Translations under genes and position numbers: made by a program
Assembly (NCBI RefSeq): GCF_964188315.1
Contig: NC_135656.1
Span: 123,566,001 to 123,630,000, forward strand
DNA length: 64,000 nucleotides
Direction of reading: 5' to 3'
Source of the DNA: Podarcis muralis
Lineage: Eukaryota
In this document: piece after piece, positions 2,904-57,116 of the stretch
Numbering within the stretch: position 1 is the stretch's first letter
How the letters are laid out: each line of letters starts with the position of its first letter
Notes under the pieces: model-generated
Told to the model about the DNA's origin: nothing
Databases searched by the model: none
The model's input: only the letters and a program-made list of their open reading frames with translations

Positions 2904-5900
2904 TTATTATTTGTACCCCGCCCATCTGGGCGGCTTCCACAGAGACCAAAAATACACTAAAATGTCACACATTAAAAACTTCCCTGAACAGGGCTGCCTT
3001 AAGATGTCTTCTGAATGTCAGGTAGTTGTTTATCGCTTTGGCATCTGATGGCAGGGCATTTCATAGGGCAGGCGCCACTACCGAGAAGGCCCTCTGCCTG
3101 GTTGCCTGTGGCTTTGCTTCTCGCAGGGAGGGAACCGCCAGAAGGCCCTTGGTGCTGGACCTCAGCGTCCGCGCAGAACGATGGGGGTGGAGACGCTCCT
3201 TCAGGTATACAGGACCGAGGCCTTTTAAGGCTTTCAAGGTCAACACCAACACTTTGAATTGTGCTTGGAAACGTACTGGGAGCCAATGTAGGTCTTTCAA
3301 GACCGGTGTTATATAGTCTCGGCGGCCGCCCCCAGTCACCAGTCTAGCTGCCGCATTCTGGATTAGTTGTAGTTTCCAGGTCACCTTCAAAGGTATCCCC
3401 ATGTAGAGCGCATTGCAGTAGTACAAGCAGGAGATTACTAGAGCATGCACCACTCTGGAGAGACAGTCCGCGAGCAGGTAGGGTCTCAGCCTGCGTACCA
3501 GGTGGAGATGGTAGACAGCTGCCCTGGATACAGAATTGACCTGCACCTCCATGGACAGCTGTGAGTCCAAAATGACTCCCAGGCTGTGCTCCTGGTCCTT
3601 CAGGGGCACAGTTACCCCATTCAGGACCAGGGAGTCCTCCACACCAGCCCACCCCGTCCCCCCAAAACAGTACTTCTGTCTTGTCAGGATTCAACCTCAA
3701 TCCATTAGCCGCCATCCATCCTCCAACCGCCTCCAGGCACTCACATAGGACCTTCACTGGTTCTGATTTGAAAGAGAGGTAGAGCTGGGTATCATCTGCA
3801 TATTGATGGACACCCAGTCCAAACCCCTTGATGATCTCTCCCAGCAGCTTCATATAGATGTTAAAAAGCATGGGGGAGAGGACGGAACCCTGAGGCACCT
3901 CACAAGTGAGGGCCCAGGGGTCTGAACACTCATTCCCCCCCCCCACCACTTTCTGAACACGGCCCAGGAGGAAGAAGCGGAACCACTGTATGACAGTGCC
4001 CCCAGCTCCCAGCCCCTCTAGACGGTCCAGAAGGATGTTATGGTCGATTGTATCAAAGGCCGCTGAGAGATCCAGCAGAACTAGGAAACAGCTCTCACCT
4101 TTGTCCCTAGCTCGCCGGAGATCATCAACTAGCGCGACCAAGGCAGTTTCAGTCCCATGATGAGGCCTGAATCCTGATTGGAAGGGATCCAAATGGTCCG
4201 CATCCTCCAGGCATGCCTGGAGTTGTTCAGCAACCACTCGCTCAATCACCTTACCCAAGAATGGAAGATTTGAGACTGGGCGATAGTTGGCCATACTGGC
4301 TGGGTCTAAAGATGTTTTTTTTAAGAAGCGGTTTAATGATCGCCTCTTTCAGCGGATCTGGGAACTTTCCCTCACAGAGGGAAGCATTCACCACCCTGCA
4401 AAGCCCATCACCCAGCCCTTCCCGGCTTGCTTTTATTAGCCAGGATGGGCAAGGATCAAGGAGACAGGTGGTTCGTTTCACGCGTCCAAGCAGCCTGTCC
4501 ACATCCTCGAGGGTAACGGATTGAAATTGATTCCATGCAACTTGACCAGACAGGGCTCTAGCACTCTCCCGCCCCAGCCCTGCTCCCACGGTGGTGTCTA
4601 GCTCCTTCCGAATATGAGTGATTTTATCTGCAAAAAAACTTTGCAAAATCGTTGCAGGAGATCTTGGGGTCTTTACAAGGCCCCGGTGGTAAAGGTGGTT
4701 CCGTTAAATTGCGGACCACCTGAGTCTCCTGCTACTATTTTCTGCAGATGTAATAGAGGCGGTGAAGAAAGTCTTCTTCGCCGTCACTATCGCCACTTGG
4801 TAGGCTCGACATTGAGCTCTAACCTGTGTCCAGTCAGATTTGGAATGAGTTTTCTGGCACTGACGCTCTAGCCGTCTCAGCGATTGTTTCATTGCCCTCA
4901 GCGCCGAAGAAAACCACAGGGCTGTCTGGGCTCCATGCAATCGGAGAGGGCGCTTCGGAGCCAGACAGTTGATAGCCGTGGTTAACTCCGCATTCCAGCG
5001 GGCCACCAGGGAATCAGCTGAAAGGCCATCACCATGGGACAAAGCATGCCCTACCACTCTCTGGAAACCATTTGGACCCATTAAGTGGCGGGGACGGACC
5101 ATCCAAATTGGTCCCACCTCCCTGCAGAGGGGAAGGGTCGCAGAGAAGTCCAGTTGCACCAGGAGGTGATCTGACCATGGCACTTCTTTTGTTTCACTTT
5201 TACTTAGTGTCAGATCACCACATCACTAGAGGTGAACACCAGGTCTAAGGCATGTCCATGACTATGAGTTGGGCCAAACTTATTCAGGGACAGCCCCATG
5301 GAGGCCATGCTTTCCACGAAGTCCCGAGCGGCCCCCGGTAAGGGCATGTCGGCATGGTTGTTAAAAATCCCCTAGGACAACCAAACTACTGTAGGTGTCT
5401 CCAGGAGAACATCCGCCACGACCTGAAGCAGCTCGGACAAGGAATCCTTGGTGCAGTGGGGAGGTCGGTACACCAAAAGGAATCCTGTACTGCCTCTATT
5501 GCCCAACTTCCAGAACATGCACTCAGAGAACTGGGTCCTCCTAGTAGGACGCCTGATGCAAGCTAATGACTTCCTAAAAATCACTGCAACCCCCCCTCCC
5601 CACCCACATGACCTGGGTTGCTGTGCATAAGAGAAACCTGGTGGGCAAGCAGCGGCAAGGAGAGGCCCATCTGCTTTATCCAACCAGGTCTTTGTCACAC
5701 GTGCCAGGTCAAATCCTCCATCCACAATCAAGTCGTGGATGGCAGTGCTTTTATTCATCATTGCATTACACAGCAACACCTTCAGGTCATGTGGGTTTCC
5801 CCTGTTGATTCCAGTATCCATCCGGTCAAGGCCAGACCCGGAGGCAGGGATAGTCTTCAAACAACGACTAAACCTGCCTCCTCGGTAATGACATGGTCTG

Positions 5901-6197
5901 GTCTTAGCGTAACTCCTCCTCCTGCCCATGATCATAGAGATTGGATGTCCCAGTGCTCCCCCCCCCCCCCGTGGAACTTGTCCCAGCCATTGTGTTGGCT
6001 GGGGCCCCACTCCCAGGCAGCCCTGATCCCACCCCTTAAAAATAAAACACAAACTATACACAACCAATAAAACAACAAAAAACAAAAACAGAACAATTAT
6101 ACTAAAATTAATCCACAACCAAATATCCATAACACCAACCCACCCCCAACAAAGGAAAAAAAGGGGGGGGGAATTAAAATGCCACCGACTGCTTGAG
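2825..6197 (-). mobile_element. L2-clade LINE, near full length, frameshifted ORF2 (APE endonuclease + RT)
   Basis: ORF pieces 5372-6202 (GGGVAV, VYRPP), 4704-5183, 4251-4646, 3344-4294 (NYRPVSNLPFLGK, QSGFR, DLSAAFDT, YADD) and 3061-3642; (AAT)n tail at ~2830-2910. Empty site in the paralog near 14600. Confidence 0.92.
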
Positions 6198-6243
6198 GAC
6201 ATTTTAAAACACAGATAGCATACCTTTTACAAATTATAAATAT

Positions 6244-9849: not shown

Positions 9850-10515
9850 TGTGCTTATTAAGAACTTCATTATAACTGAAATACTTTCCACACTCCATTT
9901 AAACAGTTGCTTCTCTGTGAGATCTTTGATGTCTTCTAAGAGTTCCATTTCCATTGAAGCCCTTTCCACACTCTATACATTTAAATGGTTTCTCCCCTGT
10001 ATTAGTTCGTTGATGTCTTTTAAGAGCTCCATTCCGATTAAAGCACTTCCCACAATTCATACATTTAAATGGTTTTTTTCCCTTTGTGAGTTCGTTGATG
10101 TGTAGTAAGGCTTGCACTCTGACTTAAGCTCTTTCCACATACCATACATCTAAATCAGGCATGTCCAAAGTCGGATTATTCCGGCCCCTGTGGCAGTTTA
10201 TTTCCTGGGGTAAAATCCTAAAAAACCCTCAAAAACCTTGGGGGGAAATCCCGCCAAAAGCTCAACAACTTCAATCCTAAAAAAACAACTTTGGTCAGCC
10301 CCCACGCATATTCACTTCTTCAAATCTGGCCCTCATTGAAAAAAGTTTGGACACCCCCGATCTAAACGGTTTCTCCCCTGTGTGAATTTGTTGATGTATG
10401 GCAAGTCTCCAATTTTTACTGAAGCTCTTCCCACTCCATACATCTAAATGGTTTTCCCTGTGTGAATTCATTGATATTAGATAAGTCTTCCATTTTTACT
10501 GAAGCTCTTTCAGCA
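9850..10515 (-). pseudogene. Decayed zinc-finger repeats downstream of the gene B stop codon (3' UTR)
   Basis: Finger/linker-like sequence continues past the TAG (e.g. ORF 9899..10117 [40 protein letters not shown]) with stops and frameshifts, and is interrupted by a hAT MITE. Confidence 0.85.
10156..10359. mobile_element. hAT (Charlie-like) MITE inside decayed fingers
   Basis: Imperfect TIR CAGGCATGTCCAAA / TTTGGACACCCCCG; 8-bp TSD atctaaat/atctaaac. Confidence 0.8.
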
Positions 10516-13500
10516 CTACATACATTTAAAGGGCTTCTCCACTGTGTGAGATCGCTGGTGTCTTCTAAGAGTTCTACTATCACTTAAACCCTTCCCACAA
10601 TCCATACATTTAAATGGCTTCTCTCCTGTATGAGTTCGTTGATGTGTTGCAAGAGCTCCACTCTGACTGAAACCCTTCCCACAAATACATTTAAATGGTT
10701 TACTCCCAGTGTGACTTTGTTGGTGCACAGTGAGTCTTCCACTACAAATGAAGCTCTTTCCACACTCCAAACATTTATATGGTTTCTCCCCTGTATGAGT
10801 TCGTTGATGTAGAGTAAGACTTCCACTGGCACTGAAGCACTTTCCACAAACCGTACATTTGTATGGTTTCTCACCTGTGTGAGTTCGTTGGTGTCTAGTA
10901 AGTGTTCCATTGTGACTGAAACTCTGTCCACACTCTAAACATTTAAAGGGTTTCTCCCCTGTGTGAGTTCGTAGATGTATGGTCAGTTTTGAAGCTTCAC
11001 TGAAGTTCTTTCCACACTCAATACATTTAAATGGTTTCTCCCCTGTATGAGTTCGTTGATGTGTTGCAAGAGCTCCACTATGACTGAAACCCTTCCCACA
11101 CATACATTTAAATGATTTCTCCCCGGTGTGACTTTGTTGGTGTAGAGTGAGTTTGCCACTACGAATGAAGCTCTTTCCACACTCCAAACATTTATATGGT
11201 TTCTCCCCTGTGTGAGTCCGCTGATGATTTCTAAGCCCTCCACTCTCAGTGAAACTCTTTCCACAATCCATACATTTAAAGGGCTTCTCCCCTGTGTGAA
11301 TTCGTTGATGTATAGTAAGTTTTCCACTCTCACTGAAGCTCTTTCCGCACTCCATACATTTAAAAGGTTTCTCCCCTGTGTGAGTTCGTAGATGTATAGT
11401 AAGGTGTGAACATTGTCTGAAGCTCTTTCCACACTCCATACATCTAAATGGTTTGTTCCCTGTGTGAATTTGTTTATGTACAGTAAGGTTTCCATTTTTA
11501 CTGAAGCTCTTTCCGCACTCCATGCATTTAAAGGGTTTCTCTCCTGTGTTAGTTTGTAGATGGATGCTAAGGTGTTCACTCACACTTAAGTACTTTGCAG
11601 ATGGCCCTTCAATATTCTGATTGCCTCCTCCATCACCTGGTTTAAAGTGGGAGATAAGAAAATATTGCTAAGTATTTAAGGAAGAAGATCAAACCTATCC
11701 ATTCTTAAGGAAATCAGCCCTGAGTGCTCACTGGAAGGACAGATCGTGAAGCTGAGGCTCCAATACTTTGGCCACCTCATGAGAAGAGAAGACTCCCTGG
11801 AAAAGACCCTGATGTTGGGAAAGATTGATGGCACAAGGAGAAGGGGACGACAGAGGACGAGATGGTTGGACAGTGTTCTTGAAGCTACAAACATGAGTTT
11901 GACCAAACTGCGGGAGGCAGTGGAAGACAAGTATGCCTCGGACACGACTAAACAACTAAACAACAACAACAATTTAAGGAAATGAACAAGAGAACTTAAC
12001 ACACAGCAAGACCAACCAGCACCTTCTCTTATTTTAACACTTCCAGCATCCCTCCCTCTTCTATGTACTAAAGTTTCAGGAAAGGAAAGGAAATCTGAAA
12101 ATAGCCTGAAGAACCCTTAGTATCCAGTTCTACCTTCAACTCCCATGTAGCACCGAACACCAAGAAAACCCTTCTATATACAGGTGAGGCATCTATGGCC
12201 CATTCTTCATCTCCCCCCCCCCCCCAAGTGAAAATGCTTGTGTCTGTATTGGGTTTTCTCCTTCCTCCCTGATCTGTAATATCTGGCTGATACATTCCAA
12301 CCCACTGTACACATCACCTAAACCTGCACCAGGATTCTGGAAAAGATGGGCCCTTGTTCTGATCCAAAAGGGCTCTTTTTATATTCCTACACACTGAAAG
12401 GAGACATACAAAGGTACAGCCTCACAGCAAAGTGGAAGTATGTACCTCTGAATTGGTCCAGGACAACATTCCTGTATTTTTCTGTTCCAAGCGAGGAAGT
12501 GAGCTCAGACTTGAGTATCAGAGTCTCTGCTATGTGGAATAAGTAAAGCAGAATCGTTGTTTATGTCATATGTGACTGTAAAAGTATCCAAAATAACCAT
12601 CTTTTGAAGCAGAGACAGTAAAGTATCTGGTGGCCCATTAAAAGCTAATAAATGACGTCGACCAAAAAACCTCTTTGTAGATTTTACAGAGGTTTTTGTG
12701 GGGAATTCATACCACAATATCAGCTTATTTAGAGTTTCCTACAGACAAAACTAGGGATGCGGGTGGCGCTGTGGGTTAAGGCCTCAGCGCCTAGGACTTG
12801 CCGATCGAAAGTTCGGCGGTTCGAATCCCCGCGGCGGGGTGCGCTCCCATCGTTCGGTCCCAGCGCCTGCCAACCTAGCAGTTCGAAAGCACCTTCAGGT
12901 GCAAGTAGATAAATAGGGACCGCTTACCAGCGGGAAGGTAAACGGCGTTCCGTGCGCTGCTCTGGTTCGTCAGATGCAGCTTGTCACCCTGGCCACGTGA
13001 CCCGGAAGTGTCTGCGGACAGCGCTGGCTCCCGGCCTATAGAGTGAGATGAGCGCACAACCCTAGAGTCTGGCAAGACTGGCCCGTATGGGCAGGGGTAC
13101 CTTTACCTTTTTACAGACAAAACTACAGTGCTGTCAGGATTTACTATGCTCCTCTCATACCAAGAAGCAGCAAGCTGGCAGGTTTATTACTCTTAGATTT
13201 ATTGAGTATTTACACAGTAGCTTCAGTCCGAGCCCTCCCAGCTCAGTCCCAATGAGACAGTTGGAACCACTGGATGACACTGTTGATGCCAGCAGGATAT
13301 CCTCCACCGGTTGACCCACCTCCTGTTGGGCTGCTGTTGCGCCTCTACTCTACTCTTCCGCCTACTCCGAGGAGACTAGAGGACAGCCTGCCCCTCCTGC
13401 GCCGAATCTAACAGCGGCAGTTCCTCTGAAGCAGGCTCTGTCTGCCCTGTGCTGTCTAGGGAATTTATAGCCTGCATTCCAGGATGGGAGAGACTTCCAT

Positions 13501-14387
13501 CACTCTTAGTGTGAGCAAGATTCAAGCCTCTACCCTCCTTAGCCTGCCCCGCATTCTTCCCTGGAGTGCACGCAGTCACTCTGGGAAGGGAGGTCCCTGA
13601 CAAGTATTGCTATACACTACAATCTTCAACATCAACTTCATTGGACTGGTCATGTTGTTCAGATGCCTGATTATTGTCTTCCAAAGCAACTATTCTATTG
13701 CCAACTTAAGAATGGAAATTGATAAACTGGTGGATAACAAAAGAGGTTCCAAGAGGGTCTCAAGGCAAATCTAAAAAAAAAAGCAGTATAAGAACAGAAA
13801 ATGGGGAAACACTGGCCAGCAAGTGCTCCAATTGGAAAATAACCTTTACCAAAGGCGTCATGGAAGGATGTGTGGATCCAGAATTGGACTCCACAGTCAC
13901 TTACGGACACACTGTTAAGATCATGTTCATGGAAGACAATCTTATTCGGCTACAAGGGGTCACCAAAGAGGAAGACACGGCATGAATAAATGGCTCAAAC
14001 AGCAGATTCACAACTTCAACGTCTAACAGCCAAGAGGGGGGAAAATGTGCCCTTACCTAGAGAGGCCACCATCTCATAATTCTCCTCCATGACTTCCTTG
14101 TGCAGAGCTCTTTGGCCTGGATCCAGCAGAGCCCACTCCTCCTCCGTGAAAAACACAGCCACCTCCTCAAAGGTCAAGAGGGCCTGGAAGAAGAGGAGGA
14201 AGAAGACAGAGCTTCTCTTAGATCCCCATCATCCCCACTCAACACAGAGGGAGGCTGGGTGGTCCCATCTGTGCCTCTTCCCTCCTCCCTGCTCCCGTTG
14301 CTCTTTCCCTACCTGAGGAAGCTGCCTGGCTCCTCTTTCCACTCCACCTCTGAGAAGAGGCCGTTCAGAGGGGGTCTCGGAGGCCAT
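10516..14387 (-). CDS. KRAB C2H2 zinc-finger gene B, 12 fingers. Exons 14387-14313, 14183-14057 (KRAB-A), 12529-12446 (KRAB-B-like), 11636-10516
   Basis: Same exon sizes (75/127/84 nt) and splice sites as gene A, and an identical KRAB-A protein. ORF 10516..11583 holds 12 tandem C2H2 fingers with TGEKP linkers. Acceptor ccag|GTGAT at 11636 is in frame. Confidence 0.92.
11684..11972 (+). mobile_element. Bov-B (RTE) 3' fragment
   Basis: [25 protein letters not shown]; (CAA)n tail; 9-bp TSD tttaaggaa; empty site in gene A (~475). Confidence 0.92.
12754..13111 (+). mobile_element. Sauria SINE (second subfamily)
   Basis: Full head-to-tail SINE with a perfect 14-bp TSD tacagacaaaacta (12740-12753 / 13112-13125). 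Confidence 0.93.
13132..13602 (-). mobile_element. Solo LTR
   Basis: TGTCAGG...CCTGACA inverted termini; TATAAA (~13465) then AATAAA (~13200) on the minus strand; degenerate TSD agtgc/agtat; absent in the paralog. Confidence 0.75.
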
Positions 14388-19719: not shown

Positions 19720-21370
19720 TCTGGAGATAGTGTCATTGGGCATTTGTAGGTAATCTGTATTTGTCTCTTAAGATGGAATATGTATAAAATTCATCCTCTT
19801 CATTTATCCACTGGTCGAACGTTAATATACCCAAATTCATCCACCTCTTCCATACGACCATTTATTTCCCAATTTTTAAAGACGGGTTTCCCCATAAAGT
19901 CATTTTGTCGTGGGAGAAAATGTCAAATATGTATTTTTTTGACATTTGGTGTCATATCGTTCAAACTGATGTTATTGTTTCAATAGCATCTTGAGAATTA
20001 ATGTATATAGACCCAAGTGCTGCCCGTCTTTCTAAAGGTGCTACTTAAGAATATTCCAACGTAGCCCAATTTGGACAGTTGTTTTCAGTTATGGGTCTTC
20101 AGAATTGTGTACCTGACAGAAAATATGCTTGATGATACAATTCTAAGTCTGGGATCCCAAATCCTCCTTCTTTTATCAGTATTTGCAATTTTTGCATAGA
20201 TATTCTTGGAACCGAAGAGCCCCAAAGGTATTTTCTGAACAAAGATTCAATTTTGAGAAAGTATTTGCTCAGTATGTGAATTGGAATTCCTCTTAAGATC
20301 TAAACTAGTCTAGGTATTATGTTGAATTTAAGAGCATTGACTTTCCCCCACAGAGTCAGGTTCAATGACTCCTACCTGTCGATGTCTATTGATACCTCGT
20401 GATATATTTTGTTGATGTTTAATGACACAAGTCTCATGGCATTAATATATATAGGTATTTAATGTTGTCTTTGCAAATTTGAAATTTGTATTGTTTAAAC
20501 GGTTGAACCAAAAAGTTATTTCCTATTAACATCAACTCAATTTGGACCAGTTTATAGTGTATCCAGATATATTACCCAAAAATCTATATTTTGCATTAAT
20601 TTTGGAACAGTACTGTGAGATTTCGTGATAAACAGAAGAATATCATCTGCAAACATTACCAATTTGTTTTCAAGTGAGTTATTAATTACACCAAAGATTT
20701 CCTTATGCTGTCTAATAGTACATGCCAGGGGCTCCAAACAGATATTAAAAAGCAAAGGCAAAAGTGGGCAGCATTGCCTAGTACCTCTGGATAATGTGAA
20801 AGGTGCAGAGATTATGCTGTTTGTCTTAACACTAGATGTAGGGAAGCAATATAATATGTTTATCCATTTTATAAAGTCTAATGGTGTTATGTACTGTGTT
20901 GAAGAGGATCCAAATTGCAGCAGTCGGATTGGTCGTAGAACAATAGGATTCAGAATGCAGCAGTCTGGTTGGTCCGCAGGAGCCACCCAGTGCAACTCCA
21001 GGTGGAAGTGAATCCGCAACCTGATTGGCCTACAGTAGAATCCCGGAATTAGCCAATCACGTGGGGGCCCTAGTATAAATAATGTATATAAAGCAGACAT
21101 TTCAGGGGAACTTCCATTCCTCACTACTATGAGCTGAATAAAGAGCATGAAATCCACACTCGACTCCGAGTTTATTTCAAATGGGAAATCAATTTTTTGT
21201 AGTACTTTTTCTATATATAGTTTGTGGACCTTATCAAAAGCTTTTTCTGCATCTAGAGATATTATAGCTAAAGAGTCACTGTTCCTGTTTAAATATATCA
21301 AATCCACTACCAGCCTGATGTTATCTGCAGCTTGTCTCGTCTTTATAAAGTTTCTTTGTTAATCCTAACG
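19720..21370 (-). mobile_element. L1-clade LINE RT remnant
   Basis: ISLDAEKAFD, RGTRQxCPL, FADDILLF and downstream GGFGIP motifs; interrupted by a solo LTR. Confidence 0.82.
20885..21179 (+). mobile_element. Small solo LTR (295 bp) inside L1
   Basis: TG...CA termini, perfect 5-bp TSD aatgg, multiple CCAAT boxes, TATA, AATAAA. Confidence 0.85.
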
Positions 21371-21428
21371 AAATTTCAGATGCCCCCCCCCTGTTGGGGG
21401 CATTGGACATTTTTTTTCAGAAAACTGT

Positions 21429-22253
21429 TGTCAGAGCTGCCCTAGGTCCCAGCTCACAAAGGACCCACGCCAGTTCGTTGTTATATAAAACAGTCTTTAT
21501 TGAAGCTCAGTTCCGCTTTCACAGCCACAGCGCGCAGCTCTACGTCTCAAACTCTAGACCGCCGAAGCTCCGTCTGAATCTCCTCCCCCCAGACACCAGT
21601 TTAAGACTCTAGCCTTGCTCCACCTCTTCCGTTGCTCTCTTCTCCTCTGGGCCCGCCTGTCCCCTGGGGTCTCGCCTCTCCTAGACTCTTCTGACACTGA
21701 GTCTCCTGAGTCCTCCCCCTCCCTCCGGCGGGCTTTAGGACCTGGTTCCCAATCTGGGTTTCCTGCTGTGCCGCGCGCCTGTACATTCGAACTTGGCGCG
21801 CGCGCCCAGCCAGCCACCTTCCTCCTGACCGTTACACTGCTCCTGTCACTGCTTCCCCCTTCGGGGAGGCTAGCTGCACCTGACTCTCCCTCCGTTCCCT
21901 CACTCTGCGATGGAGGCGTGGCCACTCCTGACTCATCTTCTCTCCCTGCTGGAGGAGAAGCTGGCCCTGATACATGTGACTCTTCCCCCTCACTACGCTC
22001 TGGTGGAGGAGCTGGTCCTGCTCTCCCGCTGCTGCTTTGGGAGTCCCCGCTGGTCCCTTGCTTCTGGTGTGTCCCCCCTGGGACCCCCCTTGCCCTGGCC
22101 ATCGGTGCCCCCCTCTGGGAATCTTCTGATTCGCTGGAGAGACTCATGGAATCTCTCGGGCCACTTTCATACTCCCCTACGCTGCCCTCAGATTCTTCCC
22201 CTTCGCTCTCCATCTCCTCTCTCCCCTGTGCCTCTGCTCCTGAGCCCCTGACA
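21429..22253 (-). mobile_element. Solo LTR (825 bp) with an open U3 reading frame
   Basis: TGTCAG...CTGACA termini, perfect 5-bp TSD actgt, AATAAA at 21496-21501 (minus). ORF 21554..22324 spans most of it. Confidence 0.85.
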
Positions 22254-23120
22254 ACTGTCTTTGTAAGTTTCTGCATGTGAGATGAAACTCTGGCTGTGAA
22301 GCTGGATTGTTTGCACAGGTACAAAGATAAGACACTGATGCTGGTCCAACCACACTTGCTGCCAGTTAGCTTCCAGACCCAAGTCCTGGCTTTGACCTAT
22401 GAAGCCTTAAAAGGCCGAGGCCCACAATATCTCAGGGCCACCTTTCAGTTTGATCCAACCTCAGGGCTCTTCTGATGTCAATCAGGTTTTGCCAAAGTCA
22501 CATTTACCCTTGATGATCTATGGCAGCCTGTTGAGTAAACATGTTTTCTCCTGCTCTGCACCTGCTCCTACAAAGTTTCAGGGGAGATATTTCTTCCCTT
22601 AGCAATCATCAGAATCACAGTGATCTATTTTTATTCTTTCCTGAGTCCAACTAGCTCCCACCCCACTGCTTGAATATTGCCTTTGCAAGCAGTAAGACAT
22701 TGCCATTAAGGGCAGCAGGAAGATTTTTATTCCACTGTGCCTGAAAGGTTGGGTGTATAAAATATATATTGTGCCACAAAATCCTGGGGGCCAAGACACA
22801 GAGCAGGTGAAGTCAGAAGGTACATCTGTGTGATGCTGCCTTCTAGATCAGTAATTTAGGCCGACTGGCTTTCCAGGAAGGGAACATCCTCAGCTTTGCC
22901 TGGAACAGGGAGCAGAGATTGCACCCTCTCACCTTCTTGGTGCAGAATAGATGCTCCACTTCTGAACCATCACCCTTCAGCTCTGAGACCAGAGCTGGAC
23001 ACCTCCCTGTTTTTGTCAATTCATTGCAATCTCTGATTTGCAAGAATTTAGGGCTTATTGTGAACAGCAGCTAGTGTTTGGTGGAACAGCTACAAGGAAA
23101 GCGTAGCAGGTAGATCCAGA

Positions 23121-26100
23121 ATGATAACACTTCTTCTGTTCCTGCCTCTTGCAACCAACGGTATGCAGCAGAGGACAAAATGCCCACTGAATCCAATCAA
23201 GGAACAAGTTTTGGCTGCAAATTTTTACCGGCTAGCAGACTACCTCATTAGTGGAGTCATATATCCAATATTCTTTCATGAACAATCTCCTTTCACCTTT
23301 TCCAGCACCCCTGTCAGCAGACTTGAGACGTAAGAAATGATGCATTGATGTAGTTCTGCTTCCTGTCTACTCTCCATTTCCCCTAATGCACTTGTTTCCT
23401 GATAAACTTGAAAATGTTAATTACATTACATTTCATTAATTTGTTTAAAGAGTTCTTTGTGTCTGTTCAATTAGTGAAAAACCATGTTTCAAAGTGTTTT
23501 ATAATGAATTTTAAATAATTAGTAGTAGTTTTGACATGTACTGCTCTCCAAAGCATGACTTGTTTTCTAAAGGGTAGGAAATGTTGTGGGATGTGTTTGA
23601 GTTGCAAGTTATTTGTAATAAATAAAATGTGAACACAATTCTTTTCCCCATGCACAACATATTCCATGCAACTTCAAATTATAAATGTCGACTTTGCTTC
23701 CCTCCACCCTCCTCCCTTGCAAAACTTCTGCAGACACAGGTACAGGTAGACCTCTGTCTCACTTTGTTCTATCTCCTGGCCCCTTTTCCAAGTCACTTTG
23801 ATTAATACAAAAAAGAATGTGAGGATGACTGTGTGACACACTTTTTTTGCAGCTGGGTGGATAAGAAGAACTCACACGTTATTTCCTTCTCCCTTGCTCT
23901 TCGGGATATTAATCACAACCCCAGCCTCTTACCCAACATCACCCTGGGCAACAGCATCTATGATACCTGTTCTGAGGGAAGACTGACTTCTGACTCCATG
24001 ACAGACCTGCTTGCTGGTGGGAAAATCAACATTCCAAACTACAGCTGTGGGAAGCAGAAAAGGCTGCTAGCTGTTCTTGAAAAGAGTGAATTTGACATCT
24101 CCACACACATTGCAAGCATATTGGGCATCTACAAGATCCCACAGGTAATCAATGGGTCCAAGTGAAACACACCTGGCAATATTAGCCACCTAGTTGTTGT
24201 TGTTGTTGTTCCTGCTGCTGCTGCCATCTGTCTGTCTTGAAAGACGATGGTGTGAGCCTCTGGGATGAAGTCAAACCACTGTGTAAGTAGTATCAAAGTG
24301 ACCTTCACAGTGCACAAGCCTAGGCAGTGGGTACGGAGGTCCTGGGCTGCCCGGACGACAAGACCTCCCTCTCAGCCTCACTGCTGTGGTCCAAAGGAAA
24401 GCAGAGCAATGCATTTGGCACAAGCTTGGCTGCAGGAGTTGCTGCAAACAAAGCACCACTCAGCGGACTTAGGATTTGTGCACTGTTTACTCCTTAGCCT
24501 TTCCCAGATGTTGGAGGGTATCCAGGGTTATTGCAATTGAGGATAGCCAGGCCCCTTCCTGCTATCTTTCTAGGGCTTACTCGAAACTTTTCTTTTATTG
24601 CAGCAGGCATTTTCATTTAAGTTTGGTTATAGTGTTTTACCTTTTTGATTGTTTTTTAAAGAATCCTTTTTAACTGGCAAGAGAATTTTGCCATTAATTG
24701 GTATAAGGATTGCTTGATTTTTTTAAAAAATATTGTTTTACTTCCCAAAAAACGGTGAGGTTTGCACTAAATCTGTCAGCATCCTTCACATAGACTTCAC
24801 ATAGTATCGGGTCTTAATGCTGAAATACAAGCCATCAATCTCTTTCCCTTTCCTCACCAGCTCAGTTATGGCTTTGCTCTTTCTGATAAATTCCAGTCCC
24901 CCTTTGTCTACCGGATGGTCCCAAACCAAGAAACGCAGTACCAGGGGATGGTCCAACTCCTCCTGCATTTCAGGTGGACGTGGGTCGGCCTCTTTGCTCC
25001 AGACAATGACAATGGAGAAAGGTTCTTGAGTACCTTGACACCTCTGATGAACAAAGGGGAAATTTGTGTTGCCTTCACACAAAGAGTACAACGAGAAACT
25101 TGGCTATGGATACCCCATGAAGCACCTGCCCTGTGGAGACAAGTCAATGTATTTGTTTACTTTGCAGACTCTCAAAGTGGACTTTACATAATCATAGAGG
25201 TACAGTCCTTGCTTGAAAGGATACAGACTGAGGGGAAAGTCTGGATAACCACACTTCTTCAGAACAAAATGTTGTTATGTGATATTGATTGCTTCCAGTA
25301 TGCTCATGGCTCTTTGTCCTTTGTAGTGAAGACCAAAAAAAGGATGAGAAAGGACTATTATGGGCCAATGTCCTTGGCTAGTCAATGGTATTCAGAAGAA
25401 GCATTTGATTGTTCATATTCCAAGCATGCCTTGTCTGTGAGGGGTATGACCAAATGCAGAGAGAAGGATAATGTGAAGATGCTGCCCCAGGAAGAGATTG
25501 AAAGAATCCAGTCCCAAGACAGCTATGTGAATTACCTGAGTATCCAAACTGTGGCTCAAGCTTTAAATGTTGCATATTCATCCTGGTCAAAGAGGATGTT
25601 GATTGTGGGTGGAGGCAGCTTGGATCTTCAAAAGCTACAGCCATGGCAGGTAAGTCCTTTTCCTCTTGCAAACTGGAATTTGTTGACCCTGCTCTGGAAT
25701 CACCATGATAACATCATCAGAATCGGTCTTGAATTGAGTCAGAACATTGGTTGGTATTGTCTACATTGACTGATTGGCCATTGACATTGTTTTCACCTGC
25801 TTACAGAAATCCATCAGAATTTCTACTACCCAGGTTCCCAGGGGAAGGGAATTCTACACGAGTTACAGGTGGAGCACAACAGAAATGGCCCATTAGTGTA
25901 TGGGAAGTCAAGATCACAGATTCAGTGCAACGTTCCTGCAGACAGAAGTATCATCCAATCATTTGCAGGCAGCAACTCATAGAGATAGAAGTGGAGCTTG
26001 CTGGACCAATGCTCTGATTCAACAGTTATCTACTTCTTAGCAGCCTCCTACACTGCATAGTTTGGGAATCCACAAAAGGTCTAAACTTGTAGAATCTAGA

Positions 26101-32042: not shown

Positions 32043-33974
32043 TTGTAGCTAGGTAACTCTTGTCTAATCTGCTCGGTGTCTGTGTCTCTCCCTCTTCAGA
32101 GAGGAGCTGAATGAAATGCCCTCTTCAAGGAGGGTTCACCTTTTGCCAGCCTGTAATGGTCAGGGGTCCCTTTACCTTTTTAATGTCCCCACAGCACCAG
32201 GAAACTTAATATGCCCATCTGCTGAGACTTGTAGAATTTTTCAGGATTTAATTATGGTAGCTCCTCTACAGAATTTTGTCTTATGGTTTCGACTTCTACT
32301 ACATCACCTGTACAGTTTTACTGATGGATAGGTGGAACGTCTTCCAAATCTATCCATTAATAAAAAGCAACTCATAAGAAAAATCGAGGATATAAGAAAG
32401 GCCTTGTTGCATAGAAAGAACAGCCCTTCCACCCCCACGTGATCTCCAGCAACTAGTATTCAAAGGAAGTCAAAGGTCACTTCCAATGTTGCTGGGAGTA
32501 CATGTCAGGTAATCTTCTCCTGGGGAATATCTTGATGAGTGAGAGGAATGTCGGCAAGAGAGCCAAGGTGTATTGGGTTCACCAAACCTGTCACTTCCGG
32601 AGGGTTGTTGTTCTGCCATGGAGTCAGTAAGCACTAGGGCCAGAGAGACCACCTGACAATTTCTGAGAGATCTCCAGCAGTTCAGGAATGGAGGCAGTGC
32701 CGTACAATGATACTCCTCCGAGTTCCTTGGAGGAATCATAGAATTTTAATGCAATACGTGATTTTACAAATTATTATTCTAGCTTCGATATATTATAAAG
32801 TTGGGGCTTAACACATCTGCTTCTCAATATTCAAACATGACAAGAAGCTGCCTTGATACTGAGTCAGCCTATTGCTCCATTTAACCCACAGTTGTCTAAT
32901 CGAGGAGTCCATAATTATTTCTGGCCTTGGCACTAGATATTAATTTTTCGAGGTGAATAATAGGAAAAATGGGTGCTGCTGCCAAAATGTCTATCACCAA
33001 ATGCAATAGTGATGTCAGCAAATTTCAGGTGTGCAACTGAAATTAGGATACTGAACTGTGTTTTCCTCTATGCAGATGCTGATGAATGCACCAAATGTCC
33101 GGAAGATCAGCATCCAAATGAGGATAGACAACAATGTGTCCCCAAATTATTGACCTTCCTGACCTATGAAGAATGTTTGGGGATCCTCCTGGCTTCCCTT
33201 GCCCTCCTCTTATCCTTAACCACAGGCTTTGTCTTAGGAATCTTCCTTAAATACAAAGAAACTCCAATAGTCAAAGCCAACAACAGGGACCTCTCCTACA
33301 TCCTCCTCATCTCTCTACTGCTCTCCTTTTTGTCCTCCTTCCTCTTTATCGGGAATCCAAGGAAAGTGACCTGCCTTCTCCGTCAAACAGCCTTCTGCAT
33401 CATCTTCTCAGTTGCTGTCTCTTCCGTCTTGGCAAAAACCATCACTGTAGTTCTGGCCTTCCTGGCCACTAAGCCAGGGAACAAGGTGAGGAAATGGCTG
33501 GGGAAGAGTTTGGCCCACTCCATTGTCATTTCCTGCTCCAGTGTCCAAGTTCTCATCTGCACCATCTGGCTGGGGATCTCTCCTCCATTCCCAGACTTTG
33601 ACCTCAGCTCCCAGCTTGGAGAGATCATTGTCCAATGCAATGAAGGCTCTGTTGCCATGCTTTACAGTTCCCTTGGCTACATGGGCTTCCTGGCTGCCAT
33701 CTGCTTCGTGGTGGCTTTCCTAGCCAGGAAGCTGCCTGGGGCCTTCAACGAAGCCAAGCTGATCACCTTCAGCATGCTGGTCTTCTGCAGTGTTTGGGTG
33801 TCCTTTGTGCCCACCTACCTGAGCACCAAGGGGAAATTCATGGTAGCTGTGCAGATCTTCTCTATCTTGGTCTCCAGTGCTGGGCTCCTGGGCTGCATCT
33901 TCATTCCCAAATGCTACATTATTATATTGAGGCCTGATTTGAATACAAAGGAGCACCTGACAAGAAAAAACTAA
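23121..33974 (+). CDS. Vomeronasal type-2 receptor (V2R) copy 1, 848 aa. Exons 23121-23329, 23853-24144, 24861-25649, 29466-29696, 30483-30609, 33076-33974
   Basis: Six exons (209/292/789/231/127/899 nt) with canonical GT-AG and compatible phases sum to 2547 nt. Signal peptide; [14 protein letters not shown] and RWTWVGL Venus-flytrap motifs; Cys-rich CCYDC domain; 7TM with [26 protein letters not shown] and [12 protein letters not shown]. Confidence 0.93.
26648..27464. mobile_element. Non-autonomous hAT (Tip100-like) element
   Basis: TIR TA(T/A)GGTTACCAGAT, perfect 8-bp TSD atctaata; empty site in the local duplicate at ~26100. Confidence 0.85.
27850..28700 (+). mobile_element. RTE-X-like LINE 3' remnant with (TAA)n tail
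   Basis: [22 protein letters not shown] and [17 protein letters not shown]-type C-terminus. Confidence 0.6.
28295..28432. mobile_element. hAT-Charlie MITE
   Basis: Palindromic actacaactccca core, TIRs, perfect TSD ctctagaa (NTCTAGAN consensus). Confidence 0.9.
28700..29100 (-). mobile_element. L2 3' remnant (second subfamily)
   Basis: [16 protein letters not shown]...[16 protein letters not shown]; the same tail occurs at 52641-52877. Confidence 0.8.
30848..31300. mobile_element. Tc1/mariner MITE with an internal GCTAAGCC/CAGCTGATCC minisatellite
   Basis: TIRs plus TA TSD; tandem ~24-nt units at ~31010-31220. Confidence 0.88.
31565..32042 (+). mobile_element. L2 3' remnant with (ATT)n tail
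   Basis: [25 protein letters not shown] motif. Confidence 0.85.
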
Positions 33975-36852: not shown

Positions 36853-37797
36853 TGTCAGGAACATGGCTCACCCGAGTGCAGGGGAAGAGTGAGACTCAGA
36901 AATTAAGCTAAGTGAGAGAGGGAACGACTCTGGAGATGAGAGCTGGTTGACAGAGCCGAGAAGGGGCAGTTTGACACCCCCACTTCCCTAAGAAGACACT
37001 GTTAGCTCTCAACAAACAGGAGAGTTAGGAGGCAGCCAGAGCGTTGCTAGGCAATCAGCAGATAAGCAGTGAACTGAGAGTGTGTTGGGTGGAAGTAGAG
37101 AGGTGGAAAGCCAGCCTCTCAGTCCCTGTTCTAGGAGACTGGATAAGGTCAGAGGACAACGGAAGGGCAAGAGGGGAAGGGCAGAAATTTGGCGTCCTTC
37201 CTGCTGTGAAAGAGGCGGAGACTCAGACTGACCAACTATCTGTTGGGATATGAATACTACGCAGCTGAGAACAAGCAGTTCGATGTTTACATCACATTAT
37301 GGCCCTGACCGTGGGACAGGAAGTTCCAGGGATTTCTCAGGCATTTGTTCTTTGTGTAACATGAGACCTTCCTGTTGCTTGTGTGAAGGAAGTCTCAGTG
37401 AGTTGCTTGGAGAAGACTGAGCGAGCAGACATATTTTTGTACAGTTGTACAGTCAGAAATAAACTAGAGATGTAATAGACTTTCTGACTATCTTCTTTCT
37501 CCTGCTGCTATGCAAGAGCAAAGGGGGTGTGCACCTTTCACACAGGGAGGTGCCGCCTATCAAGATCTTCCTGGACTGCTGGGATGCCAACCAGGGTAGG
37601 TCACCGGCAAACAAGCCCCAGTAGCCTGGGAGAGGGGCCAGCCTCTCCCAAGGGGGCTAGTTTTTCAACACTATCGTCATTGTGAGCAGGCTAGAAGCCG
37701 TTCTCTGGATGTGTTTTTTGTAAATAAACATAACATAAAACTGCCAAAGTGTCATTACTTCTTACCAGGGCTTGCTTGCCTGCCTGAGAACATTACA
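36853..37797 (+). mobile_element. Solo LTR (945 bp) with a decayed U3 reading frame
   Basis: TGTCAGG...TTACA termini, TSD cgtaa/cataa, AATAAA motifs; absent at the paralogous site ~56655. Confidence 0.78.
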
Positions 37798-39951: not shown

Positions 39952-42900
39952 TTATTATTTATACCCCGCCCATCTGGCTGGGCCTCCCCAGCCACTCTGG
40001 GCGGCTTCCATAAAAACCACAACCACAAAAACCATGTTGTTCTGCGTCCTACCTGCTCTCCATTTCCCGTGCTACACTTGTTTTCTGATAAACTTGAAAA
40101 TGTTCATTTCATTTCATTAATTTAAAGCTATGTTTCAAAGCTTTTCATAATGAATTTTAAATAATTAGTAGTAGTTTTGACATGTATTGCTCTCCAAAGC
40201 ATGACTTGTTTTCTAAAGGGTAGGAAATGTTGTGGGATGTGTTTGAGTTGCAAGTTATTTGTAATAAATAAAATGTGAACACAATTCTTTTCCCCATGCA
40301 CAACATATTCTATGCAACTTCAAATTTTAAATGTTGACTTTGCTTCCCTCCACCCTCCTCCCTTGCAAAACTTCTGCAGACACACGTACAGGTAGACCTC
40401 TGTCTCACTTTGTTCTACCTCCTGGCCCCTTTTCCAAGTCACTTTGATTAATACAAAAAAGAATGTGAGGATGACTGTGTGACACACTTTTTTTTGCAGC
40501 TGGGTGGATAAGAAGAACTCACACGTTATTTCCTTCTCCCTTGCTGTTCGGGATATTAATCATAACCCCAGCATCTTACCCAACATTACACTGGGCTACA
40601 GCATCTATGATACCTGTTCTGAGGGACGACTGACTTCTGACTCCATGACAGACCTGCTTGCTGGTGGGAAAATCAATATTCCAAACTACAGCTGTGGGAA
40701 GCAGAAAAGGCTGCTAGCTGTTCTTGAAAAGAGTAGATTTGATGTCTCCACACACATTGCAAGCATATTGGGCATCTACAAGATCCCACAGGTAATCAAT
40801 GGGTCCAAGTGAAACACACCTGGCAATATTAGCCACCTGGTTGTTGTTGTTGGCATCTGTCTGTCTTGAAAGACGATGGCGTGAGCCTCTGGGACGAAGT
40901 CAAACCACTGTGTTAGCACTATCAAAGTGATGTCCACAGTGCACAAGCCTAGGCAGTCGGTACGGAGGTCCAGGGCTGCCCAGATGACAAGACCTCCCTC
41001 TCAGGCTCACTGCTGTGGTCCAAAGGAAAGCAGAGCAATGCATTTGGCACAAGCTTGGCTGCAGGAGTTGCTGGAAGGAGGCAAACAAAGCACCACTCAG
41101 CTGACTTAGGATTTGTGCAGGGTTTACTCCTTAGCCTTTTATTCTCCCAGATGTTGGAGGGTATCCAGGGTTATGGAACTCCCTTGCAGTTGAGGACAGA
41201 CAGGCCCCTTTCCTACTGTCTTTCTAGGGTCTATGCAAACTTTACCTTTTTTCTTTTCTTTCCCCCCTTCCCTTCCCTTCCCTTTCTTTACAACAGGCAT
41301 TTTAATTGAAGTTTTATTATACAGTTTTACCATCTTGATTTTTTTACTGAATCTTTTTTAAGTGCATAGAGAATTTTGCCATTACTCAGTATAATAATTG
41401 CTTGTTATACTCACAAAACGGTGAGGTTTGCATTAAATCTGTCAGCATATTTCATATAGAAGTATCCCACCTTAATCCTTAAGCTATCAATCTCTTTCCC
41501 TTTCTTCACCAGCTCAGTTATGGCTTTGCTCTTTCTGATAAATTCCAGTCCCCCTTTGTCTACCGGATGGTCCCAAACCAAGAAACGCAGTACCAAGGGA
41601 TGGTCCAACTCCTCCTGCATTTCAGGTGGACATGGGTCGGCCTCTTTGCTCCAGACAATGACAGTGGAGAAAGGTTCCTGAGTACCTTGACACCTCTAAT
41701 GAACAAAAGGGAAATTTGTGTTGCCTTCACACAAAGAGTACTACGAGAAACATGGCTATGGATACCCCAAGAACCACCTGCCCTGTGGAGACAAGTCAAT
41801 GTATTTGTTTACTTTGCAGACTCTCAAAGTGGACTTTACATAATCATAGAGGTACAGTCCTTACTGGAAAGGATACAAACTGGGGGGAAAGTCTGGATAA
41901 CCACAGTTCCTTCAAACAAAATGTTGTTATGTGATATTGACTGCTTCCAGTATGCTCATGGCTCTTTGTCTTTTGTAATGAAGACCAAAAAAAGGATGAA
42001 GAAGGACTACTATGGGCCAATGTCCTTGGCTAGTCAACAGTATTCAGAAGAAGCATTTCATTGTTCATATTCCAAGCATGCCTTGTCTGTGAGGGGTATG
42101 ATCAAATGCAGAGAGAAGGATAATGTGAAGATGCTCCCCCAGGAAGAGATTGAAAGAATCCAGTCCCAAGACAGCTATGTGAACTACTTGAGTATCCAAG
42201 CTGTGGCTCAGGCCTTAAATGCTGCATATTCATCCTGGTCAAAGAGGATGTTGATTGTGGGTGGAGGCAGTTTGGATCTTCAAAAGCTACAGCCATGGCA
42301 GGTAAGTCCTTTTCCTTTTACAAACTAGAATTCATTGTCCCTGCTCCGGAATCACCATGATAGGATCATCTGAATCTGTCTTGCACTGTGTCAGAACACT
42401 GGTTAGTACTGTCTACATTGACTGACTGGCCGTTGACATTGTTTTCACCTGCTGGCAGAAGTCCATCAGAGTTTGTCCCATCCAGGTTCCCAGTTGAAAG
42501 GAATTCTACACTAGTTACAGGTGGAGCACAACAGAAACGACCCATTGGTGTATGGGAAGTCAAGATCACAGATACAGTGCTATATTCCTGCTGACAGAAG
42601 TATCATCCAATAATTTGCAGGCAGAGACGGCAAAACATAGAAAGAGATGTGGAACTCATTGGACCAATGCGCTGATTCAACTTAGCAGCCTCTAACATGA
42701 ATACAGTGGTACCTCGGGTTAAGTACTTTATTCGTTCCGGAGGTCCTTTCTTAACCTGAAGCGGTTCTTAACCTGAAGCACCACTTTAGCTAATGGGGCC
42801 TCCCGCTGCTGCTGCACCGCCGAAGCATGATTTCTGTTCTCATCCTGAAGCAAGGTTCTTAACCCGAGGTACTATTTCTGGGTTAGCGGAGTCTGTAACC

Positions 42901-48900: not shown

Positions 48901-49734
48901 CCCAAAATATTTACCTTCCTGTCCTATGAAGAATGTTTGGGGAGCCTCCTGGCTTCCCTTGCCCTCCTCTTATCCTTAACCACAGGTTTTGTGTTAGGAA
49001 TCTTCACTAAATATAAAGAAACTCCCATAGTCAAAGCCAACAACAGGGACCTCTCCTACATCCTCCTCATGTCTCTACTGCTCTCCTTTTTGTCCTCCTT
49101 CCTCTTCATTGGAAAGCCAAGGAACGTGACCTGCCTTCTCAGACAAACAGCCTTCTGCATCATCTTCTCAGTTGCTGTCTCTTCTGTCTTGGCAAAAACC
49201 ATCACTGTAGTGCTGGCCTTCCTGGCCACTAAGCCAGGGAACAAGGTGAGGAAATGGCTGGGGAAGAGTTTGGCCCACTCCATTGTCATTTCCTGCTCCA
49301 GTGTCCAACTTGTCATCTGCACCATCTGGCTGGGGATCTCTCCTCCATTCCCAGACTTTGACCTGAGCTCTCAACTTGGAGAGATCATTGTCCAATGCAA
49401 TGAAGGCTCTGTTGCCATGTTTTATGGTTCTCTTGGCTACATGGGCTTCCTGGCTGCCATCTGCTTCACAGTGGCTTTCTTAGCAAGGAATCTGCCTGGG
49501 GCATTCAATGAGGCCAAGCTGATCACCTTCAGCATGCTGGTCTTCTGCAGTGTTTGGGTGTCCTTTGTGCCCACCTACCTGAGCACAAAGGGAAAATTCA
49601 TGGTAGCCGTTCAGATCTTCTCCATTTTGGCCTCCACTGCTGGGCTCCTGGGTTGCATCTTCATTCCCAAATGCTACATTATTATATTGAGGCCTGATCT
49701 GAACACAAAGGAGCACCTGACAACAAAAAACTAA
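39668..49734 (+). CDS. V2R copy 2, 848 aa. Exons 39668-39876, 40500-40791, 41513-42301, 44806-45036, 46893-47019, 48836-49734
   Basis: Exon lengths and phases identical to copy 1. All exons open, with the same class C GPCR motifs. Confidence 0.93.
42704..42945. mobile_element. Tigger-like MITE
   Basis: TIRs plus TA TSD. Confidence 0.88.
43579..44101 (+). mobile_element. 5'-truncated RTE-X-like LINE
   Basis: 12-bp TSD gttgtgaaccac; CPNW...[18 protein letters not shown]-terminus; terminal AATAAA. Confidence 0.6.
45141..46248. mobile_element. L1 insertion with an inverted 5' segment (ORF2 end on minus, ORF1 piece on plus)
   Basis: ORF 45484..45744 (-) L1 ORF2 C-terminus; ORF 45818..46180 (+) L1 ORF1-like; 13-bp TSD ttgact(g/t)caatct; empty site in V2R-1 at ~29780. 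Confidence 0.75.
47905..48126. mobile_element. Penelope-like element inverted terminal-repeat remnant
   Basis: Perfect 85-bp inverted repeat (47939-48023 / 48042-48126), 12-bp TSD aggatgtaatgg; absent in the V2R-1 intron. Confidence 0.75.
48032..48069 (+). ncRNA. Minimal type-I hammerhead ribozyme motif
   Basis: GUAU-CUGAAGA-A-GUGUG(CAUG)CACAC-GAAA-GCUC/AUAC: conserved core, stem I, stem II, palindromic AGCU helix III. Confidence 0.7.
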
Positions 49735-56500: not shown

Positions 56501-57116
56501 TGATGTGTGATATCACAAGCACACGTGACGTCGCCAGTGTGCAGTAGGCTCCCATAATGTCGGGTGGTACTCGGCATACCTGATTTTGAACTCCCCTTTG
56601 GGATTTGTATGTTGCGAGCTGCCCTGGGATCTTTGGATGAAAGACAGTATACAAACCACAACAACGTGTATGTGTAAGCTGGGTAGACCTCATCGAATTC
56701 ATTGGGATACTGGATAAAAGCTTCAATGGGGCTTCAAAGGGCTGGATGTTGCTGCAATTGTCCATGGAAGCATTATTTCCTTTACAAAAAATTCTCTAGT
56801 TCTTGGAATGTATTTGTTGGGCTGGAGAGAAATATAGGGGATGCTGATGGTGTATTAACTACGCTATTGCCCAGTGGCACCACAGACTGAGATGGCAGAG
56901 GTGGTCTCTGGCACGGTTTTGGAGGACCATAGTTATGCAGAATTTGCCATTGGGGCCACTTGGGACTTAATGGCTTCCATGACAATCATTGGACTTACTC
57001 AAATGGGTGCACACCTGAATTCAAGATTGGGTTGCTGCAATGCACTTTCTCTGGGTCTTTTATTGAGAGATTCAGTGCTTTTGTTTGTTTTTGAAATTCA
57101 TTGTGTAGGCCTATTT

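What the first reader, a model, noticed from the sequence alone, without database searches (positions are those of the whole stretch)
21429..22253. Solo LTR with an intact ~230-codon U3 ORF sharing a C-terminal motif with two other, dissimilar LTRs: candidate LTR-encoded accessory protein family
Seen: the TSD-flanked LTR is open from its second base (T|GTC AGG) to 21554. It encodes an acidic Ser/Gly/Glu-rich region followed by ETPGDRRAQRRREQRKRWSKARVLNWCLGGGDSDGASAV*. The LTRs at 36853 and 13132 show no obvious nucleotide similarity, yet end their U3 frames with related motifs (SPxSRR..QR..W..C..GGDSD*). Established: U3-overlapping ORFs exist in retroviruses (MMTV sag, lentiviral nef). Inference: these squamate LTR elements may encode an acidic/basic, probably disordered and nucleic-acid-binding protein in U3. 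Caveat: purine-rich strands are stop-poor, and the opposite strand is also open (221 aa).
Basis: partly seen in the sequence, partly recalled or inferred. Interest (0 to 1): 0.8.

Follow-up and report, generated by a model that had tools for sequence, protein, structure and literature searches.

The report
Integrase tail encoded inside lizard LTRs
The open frame in this lizard jumping-gene end repeat is real and under protein-level selection, and in related full-length elements it continues the integrase gene without a break, so it is most likely a floppy integrase tail that would help steer the element to the nucleus or chromatin rather than a separate accessory gene.

Summary
21429-22253 is a young solo LTR of a Tf1/sushi-type Ty3/Gypsy chromovirus; its minus-strand U3 frame is open for 232 codons. 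It is coding: against a sister family dN/dS is 0.25 (CI 0.16-0.37) and all indels are multiples of three. It is not a stand-alone gene: in sister family B pol reads in frame through the polypurine tract into this frame (19 of 28 junctions), as in four Podarcis Pol records and in a distant family E (18 of 28; RT-RH 55% identical). Best reading: an acidic, likely disordered integrase tail with a basic end, probably for nuclear import or chromatin tethering (inferred), paralleling the LTR-encoded CR motif of plant centromeric chromoviruses. Open: in this LTR's own subfamily only 1 of 17 junctions is in frame. An HMGN-like RRSxRL occurs in families E and F, not here.

The parts
21429..22253 (-). 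Solo LTR (family A, 232-codon subfamily) of a Ty3/Gypsy chromovirus
   Evidence: TG..CA, TIR, TSD; 40 best genome matches all 98-100%; two-LTR copies carry gag-PR-RT-RH-IN
21424..21428 (+). Target-site duplication ACTGT
22254..22258 (+). Target-site duplication ACTGT
21554..22252 (-). U3 open frame, 232 codons plus TAG: the LTR-encoded part of the Pol/integrase tail; no upstream start or promoter in a solo LTR
21623..21658 (-). Basic block RRAQRRREQRKR before the conserved W-S..L.WC; candidate nuclear-localisation or chromatin anchor (inferred)
   Evidence: 8 of 12 residues K/R; invariant columns in alignment A3
21600..21606 (-). TATA-like TCTTAAA inside the codons for VLN, about 30 nt before the likely transcript start (function inferred)
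21565..21575 (-). 11-nt sequence complementary to the primer-binding site of full elements: likely RNA 5' end (U3/R border) for self-priming; lies in the last codons of the frame
   Evidence: 11-nt match in 8 of 9 two-LTR elements (8 nt in the ninth), with a compensatory change in family B
21496..21501 (-). Polyadenylation signal AATAAA
21558..22280 (+). Antisense open frame (240 codons), explained as the shadow of the sense frame
   Evidence: dN/dS 0.32-0.35 versus 0.24-0.26 sense; sense frame has none of the codon pairs that make a stop in this register
36853..37797 (+). Older solo LTR (family C) with a decayed U3 tail frame, interrupted by a 430-bp insertion at 37241-37670
   Evidence: a 3' LTR relative has its chromodomain in the U3 frame
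13132..13602 (-). Older solo LTR (family D) with a decayed U3 tail frame homologous to family C's
   Evidence: one relative has a chromodomain upstream, across a frameshift

Best explanation
This is a solo LTR of a Tf1/sushi-type Gypsy chromovirus whose U3 region is the last part of the pol gene: in intact relatives the frame runs from integrase and chromodomain through the polypurine tract into the 3' LTR, so the 232 codons are most likely an acidic, probably disordered integrase tail with a basic end that would act in nuclear import or chromatin tethering. Shown: element type, frame continuity in families B and E and in database Pol records, purifying selection between families. Inferred: that the tail stays on integrase in the particle, that it is disordered, and its targeting role (by analogy to plant CRM CR motifs and other integrase C-termini; family A/B has lost its chromodomain's aromatic residues and has the longest tail). 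The solo LTR in the window is a passive copy: its promoter lies at the far end of the frame, so it would not express it. Odds by step: coding 0.97; Pol-fused in the lineage 0.85; targeting or import role 0.45.
For: Pol in frame with U3 in 3 of 3 two-LTR B elements, two with 1348 open codons; 19 of 28 parsed B junctions; 7 of 19 in the 216-codon A subfamily; 4 of 4 longer database hits are Podarcis muralis Pol proteins ending in this tail, plus one unnamed relative. Family E, 54-57% identical in RT-RH, runs 335-352 nt into its 3' LTR in 6 of 6 elements and reaches its end motif in 18 of 28 loci. A family C 3' LTR has its chromodomain in the U3 frame with no ATG at the junction. dN/dS window versus B 0.25 (CI 0.16-0.37), differences by codon position 26/28/65, p 5e-6; dS 0.57 matches pol (0.51-0.68); chromodomain region 0.21, linker 0.40; R-U5 control shows no significant frame signal. 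Strongest constraint is in the first 60 codons (0.07), far from the promoter. [quoted passage not shown]
Against: In the window's own subfamily only 1 of 17 parsed junctions is in frame, and that copy is 92% identical with a broken U3 frame; 0 of 7 two-LTR A elements are in frame. Changes specific to this subfamily are 4 synonymous and 6 replacement, not a significant excess (p 0.18). An in-frame ATG in good context sits at the PPT/LTR edge in all A/B-type sequences seen. No protein-level evidence of expression. No Pfam match, no relative outside Podarcis or unnamed read assemblies. The HMGN-like motif is absent from A/B. Selection on the E tail is only weakly supported (p 0.04-0.08).
Confidence: 0.7

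Rival explanations
1. The tail is real in the lineage but is a recently disconnected relic in this LTR's own subfamily, which spreads with a short integrase or with proteins supplied by sister families. This is compatible with the best explanation and concerns only the 232-codon subfamily.
For: 1 of 17 junctions in frame; subfamily-specific changes 4 synonymous, 6 replacement, p 0.18.
Against: Junction G-runs also vary in families B and E (9 of 28 and 10 of 28 out of frame), several different patterns occur in A, four of the copies are one duplicated insertion, the query was itself an out-of-frame copy, and assembly error in G-runs was not excluded. The point estimate for the subfamily branch is still 0.45.
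Confidence: 0.3
2. The U3 frame is (also) a separate small protein, like nef or sag, started at the ATG on the PPT/LTR edge by re-initiation, frameshift or a subgenomic RNA.
For: In-frame ATG with G at -3 and +4 at the junction; families E and F have an in-frame ATG within the first four LTR codons; it would explain a kept frame in out-of-frame A copies; a GT donor-like sequence follows the 5' LTR.
Against: That donor-like sequence is the self-priming site; no splice joint in 4 runs laid on A or 3 on E, though internal depth was only about 0-12; sampled C and D junctions have no ATG; fusion to Pol is the majority state in B and E.
Confidence: 0.12
3. The antisense frame is the selected one.
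For: Open 240 codons, stop-free in both A and B, dN/dS about 0.33; most LTR reads were likely antisense if the libraries are of the usual stranded kind.
Against: Higher dN/dS than the sense frame and in the register that shares third positions; openness follows from the sense codon usage; reads run on into host flanks; only the sense frame continues pol.
Confidence: 0.03
4. No protein: a purine-rich promoter that is stop-poor by composition.
For: Shuffled U3 reaches 188 open codons in 5% of trials; the last 14 codons overlap promoter and self-priming signals.
Against: Frame-specific dN/dS 0.25 with other sense frames at 1.0-1.5; indels of 3, 3, 6, 63 and 48 nt; same register from TG in families A-F.
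Confidence: 0.02

Closest known systems
Plant CRM group A centromeric chromoviruses (CR motif)
   Same: Chromovirus whose pol frame crosses the PPT into the 3' LTR so that the LTR encodes the integrase C-terminus, a putative targeting domain (PMC3059260, PMC3605345; passages read).
   Different: There the LTR-encoded motif replaces the chromodomain and priming uses tRNA-Met; here a chromodomain (degenerate in A/B, canonical in E) precedes a 111-232-codon acidic/basic tail, priming looks self-primed, and the host is a vertebrate. Sequence likeness to the CR motif and centromeric location were not tested.
Tf1/sushi-group Ty3/Gypsy chromoviruses (Metaviridae)
   Same: gag-PR-RT-RH-IN order, Tf2-type SH3, chromodomain, PBS complementary to the LTR, TG..CA ends, 5-bp TSD.
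   Different: Most of U3 is coding. I found no description of this for vertebrate members in the searchable papers; the primary survey (Butler et al. 2001) was seen only as a reference.
Lentiviral nef / MMTV sag (recalled, no call)
   Same: A protein-coding frame overlapping U3.
   Different: Those are separate genes of enveloped retroviruses on their own mRNAs; this frame is fused to Pol in intact relatives and the element has no env.
HMGN / Dsup / Dot5 acidic-patch motif (RRSARLSA; PMC12487698, PMC13347269, passages read)
   Same: Family E tail carries RRSARL and family F RRSKRL near the C-terminus.
   Different: Absent from the window's family A/B and from the C and D copies tested; six-residue match only, binding untested.
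UniRef 'Gypsy retrotransposon integrase-like protein 1', Podarcis muralis
   Same: Automatic gene models already contain this tail fused to Pol.
   Different: The names say nothing about the tail or its place in the LTR.

Membership tests
Tf1/sushi chromovirus | gag-PR-RT-RH-IN order, no env | tested here: met
   Pfam on a two-LTR copy (protease hit weak, E 0.007); pol frame runs up to the 3' LTR leaving no env
Tf1/sushi chromovirus | Chromodomain at integrase C-terminus | tested here: met
   Degenerate in A/B: missed by Pfam but aligns to family E's canonical one (E 2e-14) and to HP1 structures (E 0.003); aromatic positions changed
Tf1/sushi chromovirus | Self-priming: PBS complementary to RNA 5' end | tested here: met
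   Sequence only: 11-nt match in 8 of 9 elements with a compensatory change; mechanism from PMC4600332; RNA start not mapped
Tf1/sushi chromovirus | RT phylogeny within the vertebrate clade | not tested
   Only an identity matrix was made
CRM group A | pol frame extends into the 3' LTR | tested here: met
CRM group A | CR motif in place of a chromodomain; tRNA-Met priming | tested here: not met
   A chromodomain precedes the tail and the PBS matches the LTR; CR-motif sequence itself not compared
CRM group A | Centromeric location | not tested
   Centromeres not mapped; searches return only top-scoring copies
nef/sag-like U3 accessory gene | Separate from the upstream gene | tested here: not met
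   Fused in B, E and database Pol proteins; out of frame in 16 of 17 junctions of the window's subfamily
nef/sag-like U3 accessory gene | Own spliced or internally promoted mRNA | tested here: inconclusive
   No joint seen, but coverage of the internal region was very low and 6-12% of each raw-read run was read
HMGN-like acidic-patch motif | RRSxR[LIV] core | tested here: not met
   0 of 5 A/B, 0 of 3 C, 0 of 3 D tails; present in 3 of 3 F and 2 of 2 E tails
HMGN-like acidic-patch motif | Nucleosome binding through the H2A/H2B acidic patch | not testable with these tools

The most novel reading that the evidence does not exclude
Lizard chromoviruses, in lineages as distant as 55% RT identity, have turned U3 into the coding sequence of a second integrase targeting module: an acidic disordered arm ending in an arginine anchor for the nucleosome acidic patch (an HMGN mimic in families E and F), which in the window's lineage took over after the chromodomain lost its methyl-lysine cage, a vertebrate counterpart of the plant CR motif, with a slippery G-run at the PPT switching the tail on and off.
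Probability: 0.25. Interest if true: 0.78.

Novelty: new variant of a known kind. Interest (0 to 1): 0.5.

Why it matters
LTRs are treated as non-coding; here most of U3 evolves as protein, which changes how these abundant repeats should be dated, classified and annotated, and explains spurious 'hypothetical proteins' in Podarcis annotations. If the tail targets chromatin, it gives vertebrate retrotransposons a testable integration-targeting module analogous to the poorly understood plant CR motif, and families E and F offer a direct test of an HMGN-like motif in a mobile element.

Tried and rejected
Pfam on the tails of A, C and D: no family. Rfam on 21300-22400: nothing. ESM Atlas on stored homologues of the A/B and E tails: no usable hit. 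AlphaFold2 on chromodomain+linker+tail with 7 sequences: mean pLDDT 42, even the chromodomain unfolded, so it says nothing on disorder. Complex prediction with H2A/H2B was not available, and contig context for the unnamed protein hits could not be looked up. Profile search of 1.84 billion representatives with pooled C-terminal blocks: 4 hits, all A/B- or C-like. Region search with the E chromodomain and tail: 8 hits, full-tail matches only in Podarcis; a frog Pol record continues about 100 residues past a similar G-rich junction without the acidic/basic pattern, not followed up. Run search listed no holder on record as RNA; raw RNA runs of the same species label were laid instead. Splice-donor idea after the 5' LTR: rejected as unsupported. 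Codon-position tests among old C and F copies are flat, as expected for decay after insertion; one D pair shows a third-position excess (11/16/30, p 0.006, one of 55 pairs, not significant after correction). Pattern search for PPT-LTR junctions of C/D: 5 distinct places, 1 with a chromodomain upstream. Earlier findings of this scan: nothing relevant.

Full report
Observation. The element at 21429-22253 has TG..CA ends, a 6-bp terminal inverted repeat and a 5-bp TSD. On the minus strand the frame from its second base is open for 232 codons to the TAG at 21554-21556; 45 of 5000 dinucleotide shuffles of U3 give a sense frame that long. The first 180 residues hold 31 D/E, 20 K/R and 37 S/T; the last 52 hold 12 K/R. 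The family is young and abundant: the 40 scored matches are 98-100% identical, from 3417 first-look candidates. Of 30 fetched copies 23 are TSD-flanked and 26 of the 29 others keep the 232-codon frame.

Element type. A two-LTR copy holds gag (capsid, zinc knuckle), a weak protease hit, RT, RNase H, integrase and a Tf2-type SH3 domain, then a degenerate chromodomain (35% identity to a canonical one, E 2e-14; HP1 structures E 0.003) whose aromatic positions are changed. The sequence after the 5' LTR is complementary for 11 nt to the LTR itself in 8 of 9 elements, with a compensatory change in family B, as in Tf1-type self-priming (PMC4600332, passages). That places the likely RNA start at window 21575, inside the last codons of the frame, with a TATA-like box at 21600-21606. 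So 'L.WC..GGDSD' is partly DNA signal. Named homologues are all Podarcis, so the host is likely a lacertid lizard.

The frame is coding. Natural copies were compared pairwise. Window versus family B: 206 codons, dS 0.57, dN 0.14, ratio 0.25 (bootstrap CI 0.16-0.37), differences at codon positions 26/28/65 (p 5e-6), indels 3, 3, 6 and 63 nt; versus the 216-codon subfamily 0.30 with one 48-nt indel. The other sense frames give 1.0-1.5. Controls from the same families: RT 0.05, RNase H 0.07, integrase 0.09, chromodomain region 0.21, linker 0.40; R-U5 shows no significant signal in any of three frames. The first 60 codons are most constrained (0.07), so promoter overlap does not explain the signal. 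The antisense frame (0.32-0.35 against B) is in the register sharing third positions, and the sense frame lacks every codon pair that would close it.

It is the end of pol. In 3 of 3 two-LTR family B elements pol is in frame with U3, two with 1348 open codons before the LTR. Of 30 B junction loci 28 parsed: 19 in frame, 9 not; the difference lies in the length of G-runs at the polypurine tract. All 4 longer database hits are Podarcis muralis Pol models with the tail fused, as is an unnamed, more distant relative. A chromodomain search of the genome found family E, only 54-57% identical to A/B over RT-RNase H: its frame runs 335-352 nt into the 3' LTR in 6 of 6 elements, in the same register from TG, stopping before the TATA-like box, and 18 of 28 retrotransposon loci read to the end motif (2 of the 30 loci were host genes). 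Selection on the E tail is only suggestive (p 0.04-0.08).

Against this for the window's own subfamily. None of 7 two-LTR A elements is in frame. Of 50 loci examined 36 parsed: 1 of 17 closest to the window's subfamily is in frame (92% identical, broken U3) versus 7 of 19 in the 216-codon subfamily. Some are duplicates of one insertion, the query was an out-of-frame copy, and assembly error was not excluded. Subfamily-specific codon changes are 4 synonymous and 6 replacement (p 0.18), versus 7 and 1 for the 216 subfamily and 24 and 24 for B. An in-frame ATG sits on the PPT/LTR edge in A/B. So a relic tail, or separate translation, stays possible for this subfamily.

The other two LTRs. 36853-37797 (family C, copies 79-87% identical) and 13132-13602 (family D) are older; several copies are open in the same register. 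One C-type 3' LTR has its chromodomain in the U3 frame, with premature stops and no ATG; one D-type has a chromodomain upstream across a frameshift. A D tail finds C copies genome-wide (best E 1.6e-4) and further families. C and D tails, and D and F tails, score each other above all 300 shuffles (C on F: 1-2 of 300), but none scores A or E above shuffles; in the C-terminal block test against 500 DNA shuffles A is reached by 133-368 (single families) or 19-22 (pooled). The shared feature across A, C/D/F and E is architecture and register, not a demonstrable common motif.

RNA. Laid on an A element without its repeated part, two bulk and one single-cell run gave 796, 1375 and 205 reads, nearly all on the LTR and running on into host flanks; internal depth was about 0-12 and no joint linked the 5' LTR to the PPT region. 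On an E element 159, 137 and 58 reads lay thinly, internal bulk reads almost all in one direction, with no such joint. This is weak evidence: 6-12% of each raw-read run was read and tissues are unknown.

Mechanism. Shown: coding constraint and fusion to Pol in relatives. Inferred: after polyprotein processing (general knowledge of Ty3/Gypsy) the tail stays on integrase as an acidic, serine-rich, probably disordered arm with conserved basic islands (alignment A3) that serve nuclear import or chromatin tethering. The structure prediction was uninformative. RRSARL in E and RRSKRL in F match the HMGN/Dsup/Dot5 acidic-patch core (PMC12487698 and PMC13347269, passages); A/B lack it.

Known and new. 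Plant CRM group A chromoviruses encode their CR motif in the 3' LTR (PMC3059260, passages; PMC3605345, passages), so the arrangement has a precedent. Nine searches (listings and abstract starts only) showed no description of a long selected U3 tail in vertebrate chromoviruses; PMC3601003 on LTR structure has no occurrence of 'ORF' or 'open reading frame' (passages). Butler 2001, Gorinsek 2004 and Gao 2008 were seen only as references, repeat-library entries were not searchable, and no supplements were read; any of these may note the extension. nef and sag are recalled, not looked up. Verdict: real feature, new variant of a known kind, interest 0.5.

Noticed in passing
window 37241-37670: A separate 430-bp TG..CA element with TSD CTATC and an AATAAA, nested in the family C LTR; no long frame. 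Probably a solo LTR of another family.
   Followed up: partly
window 24771-25769, 32964-33974, 41483-42328, 48643-49734 and repeats near 63350: Tandemly duplicated units with exons that look like vomeronasal type-2 (class C GPCR) receptor genes, recognised from the translation; the unit near 56650 lacks the family C LTR.
   Followed up: no
window 1-470 and 10370-11670: C2H2 zinc-finger arrays with 84-bp period.
   Followed up: no
window 49956-53264 (-), 3061-6226 (-), 20552-21358 (-): LINE remnants of several kinds; the first looks like a nearly whole RTE/Bov-B-type element by its translation (label recalled).
   Followed up: no
G000 contig C20: Copies are over-represented on this 30-Mb contig (about 2% of the genome): by my count 24 of 150 family A hits and 19 of 150 chromodomain hits; many full elements also lie near contig ends. 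Perhaps a W chromosome (guess).
   Followed up: no
L268-L286: Further LTR families (F and G) with 113-119-codon U3 frames in the same register, F carrying ESPRSRRRSKRL; no internal region was found for them.
   Followed up: partly
L031 5437-5500 (-): gag and pol overlap in different frames near a G-GGA-AAC heptamer, the PEG10-type -1 frameshift site (label recalled); many family E copies instead have one 1560-1580-codon frame.
   Followed up: no
P0046 (frog Pol record): Continues about 100 residues past a G-rich junction after its chromodomain; may be the same read-through into the LTR in an amphibian.
   Followed up: no
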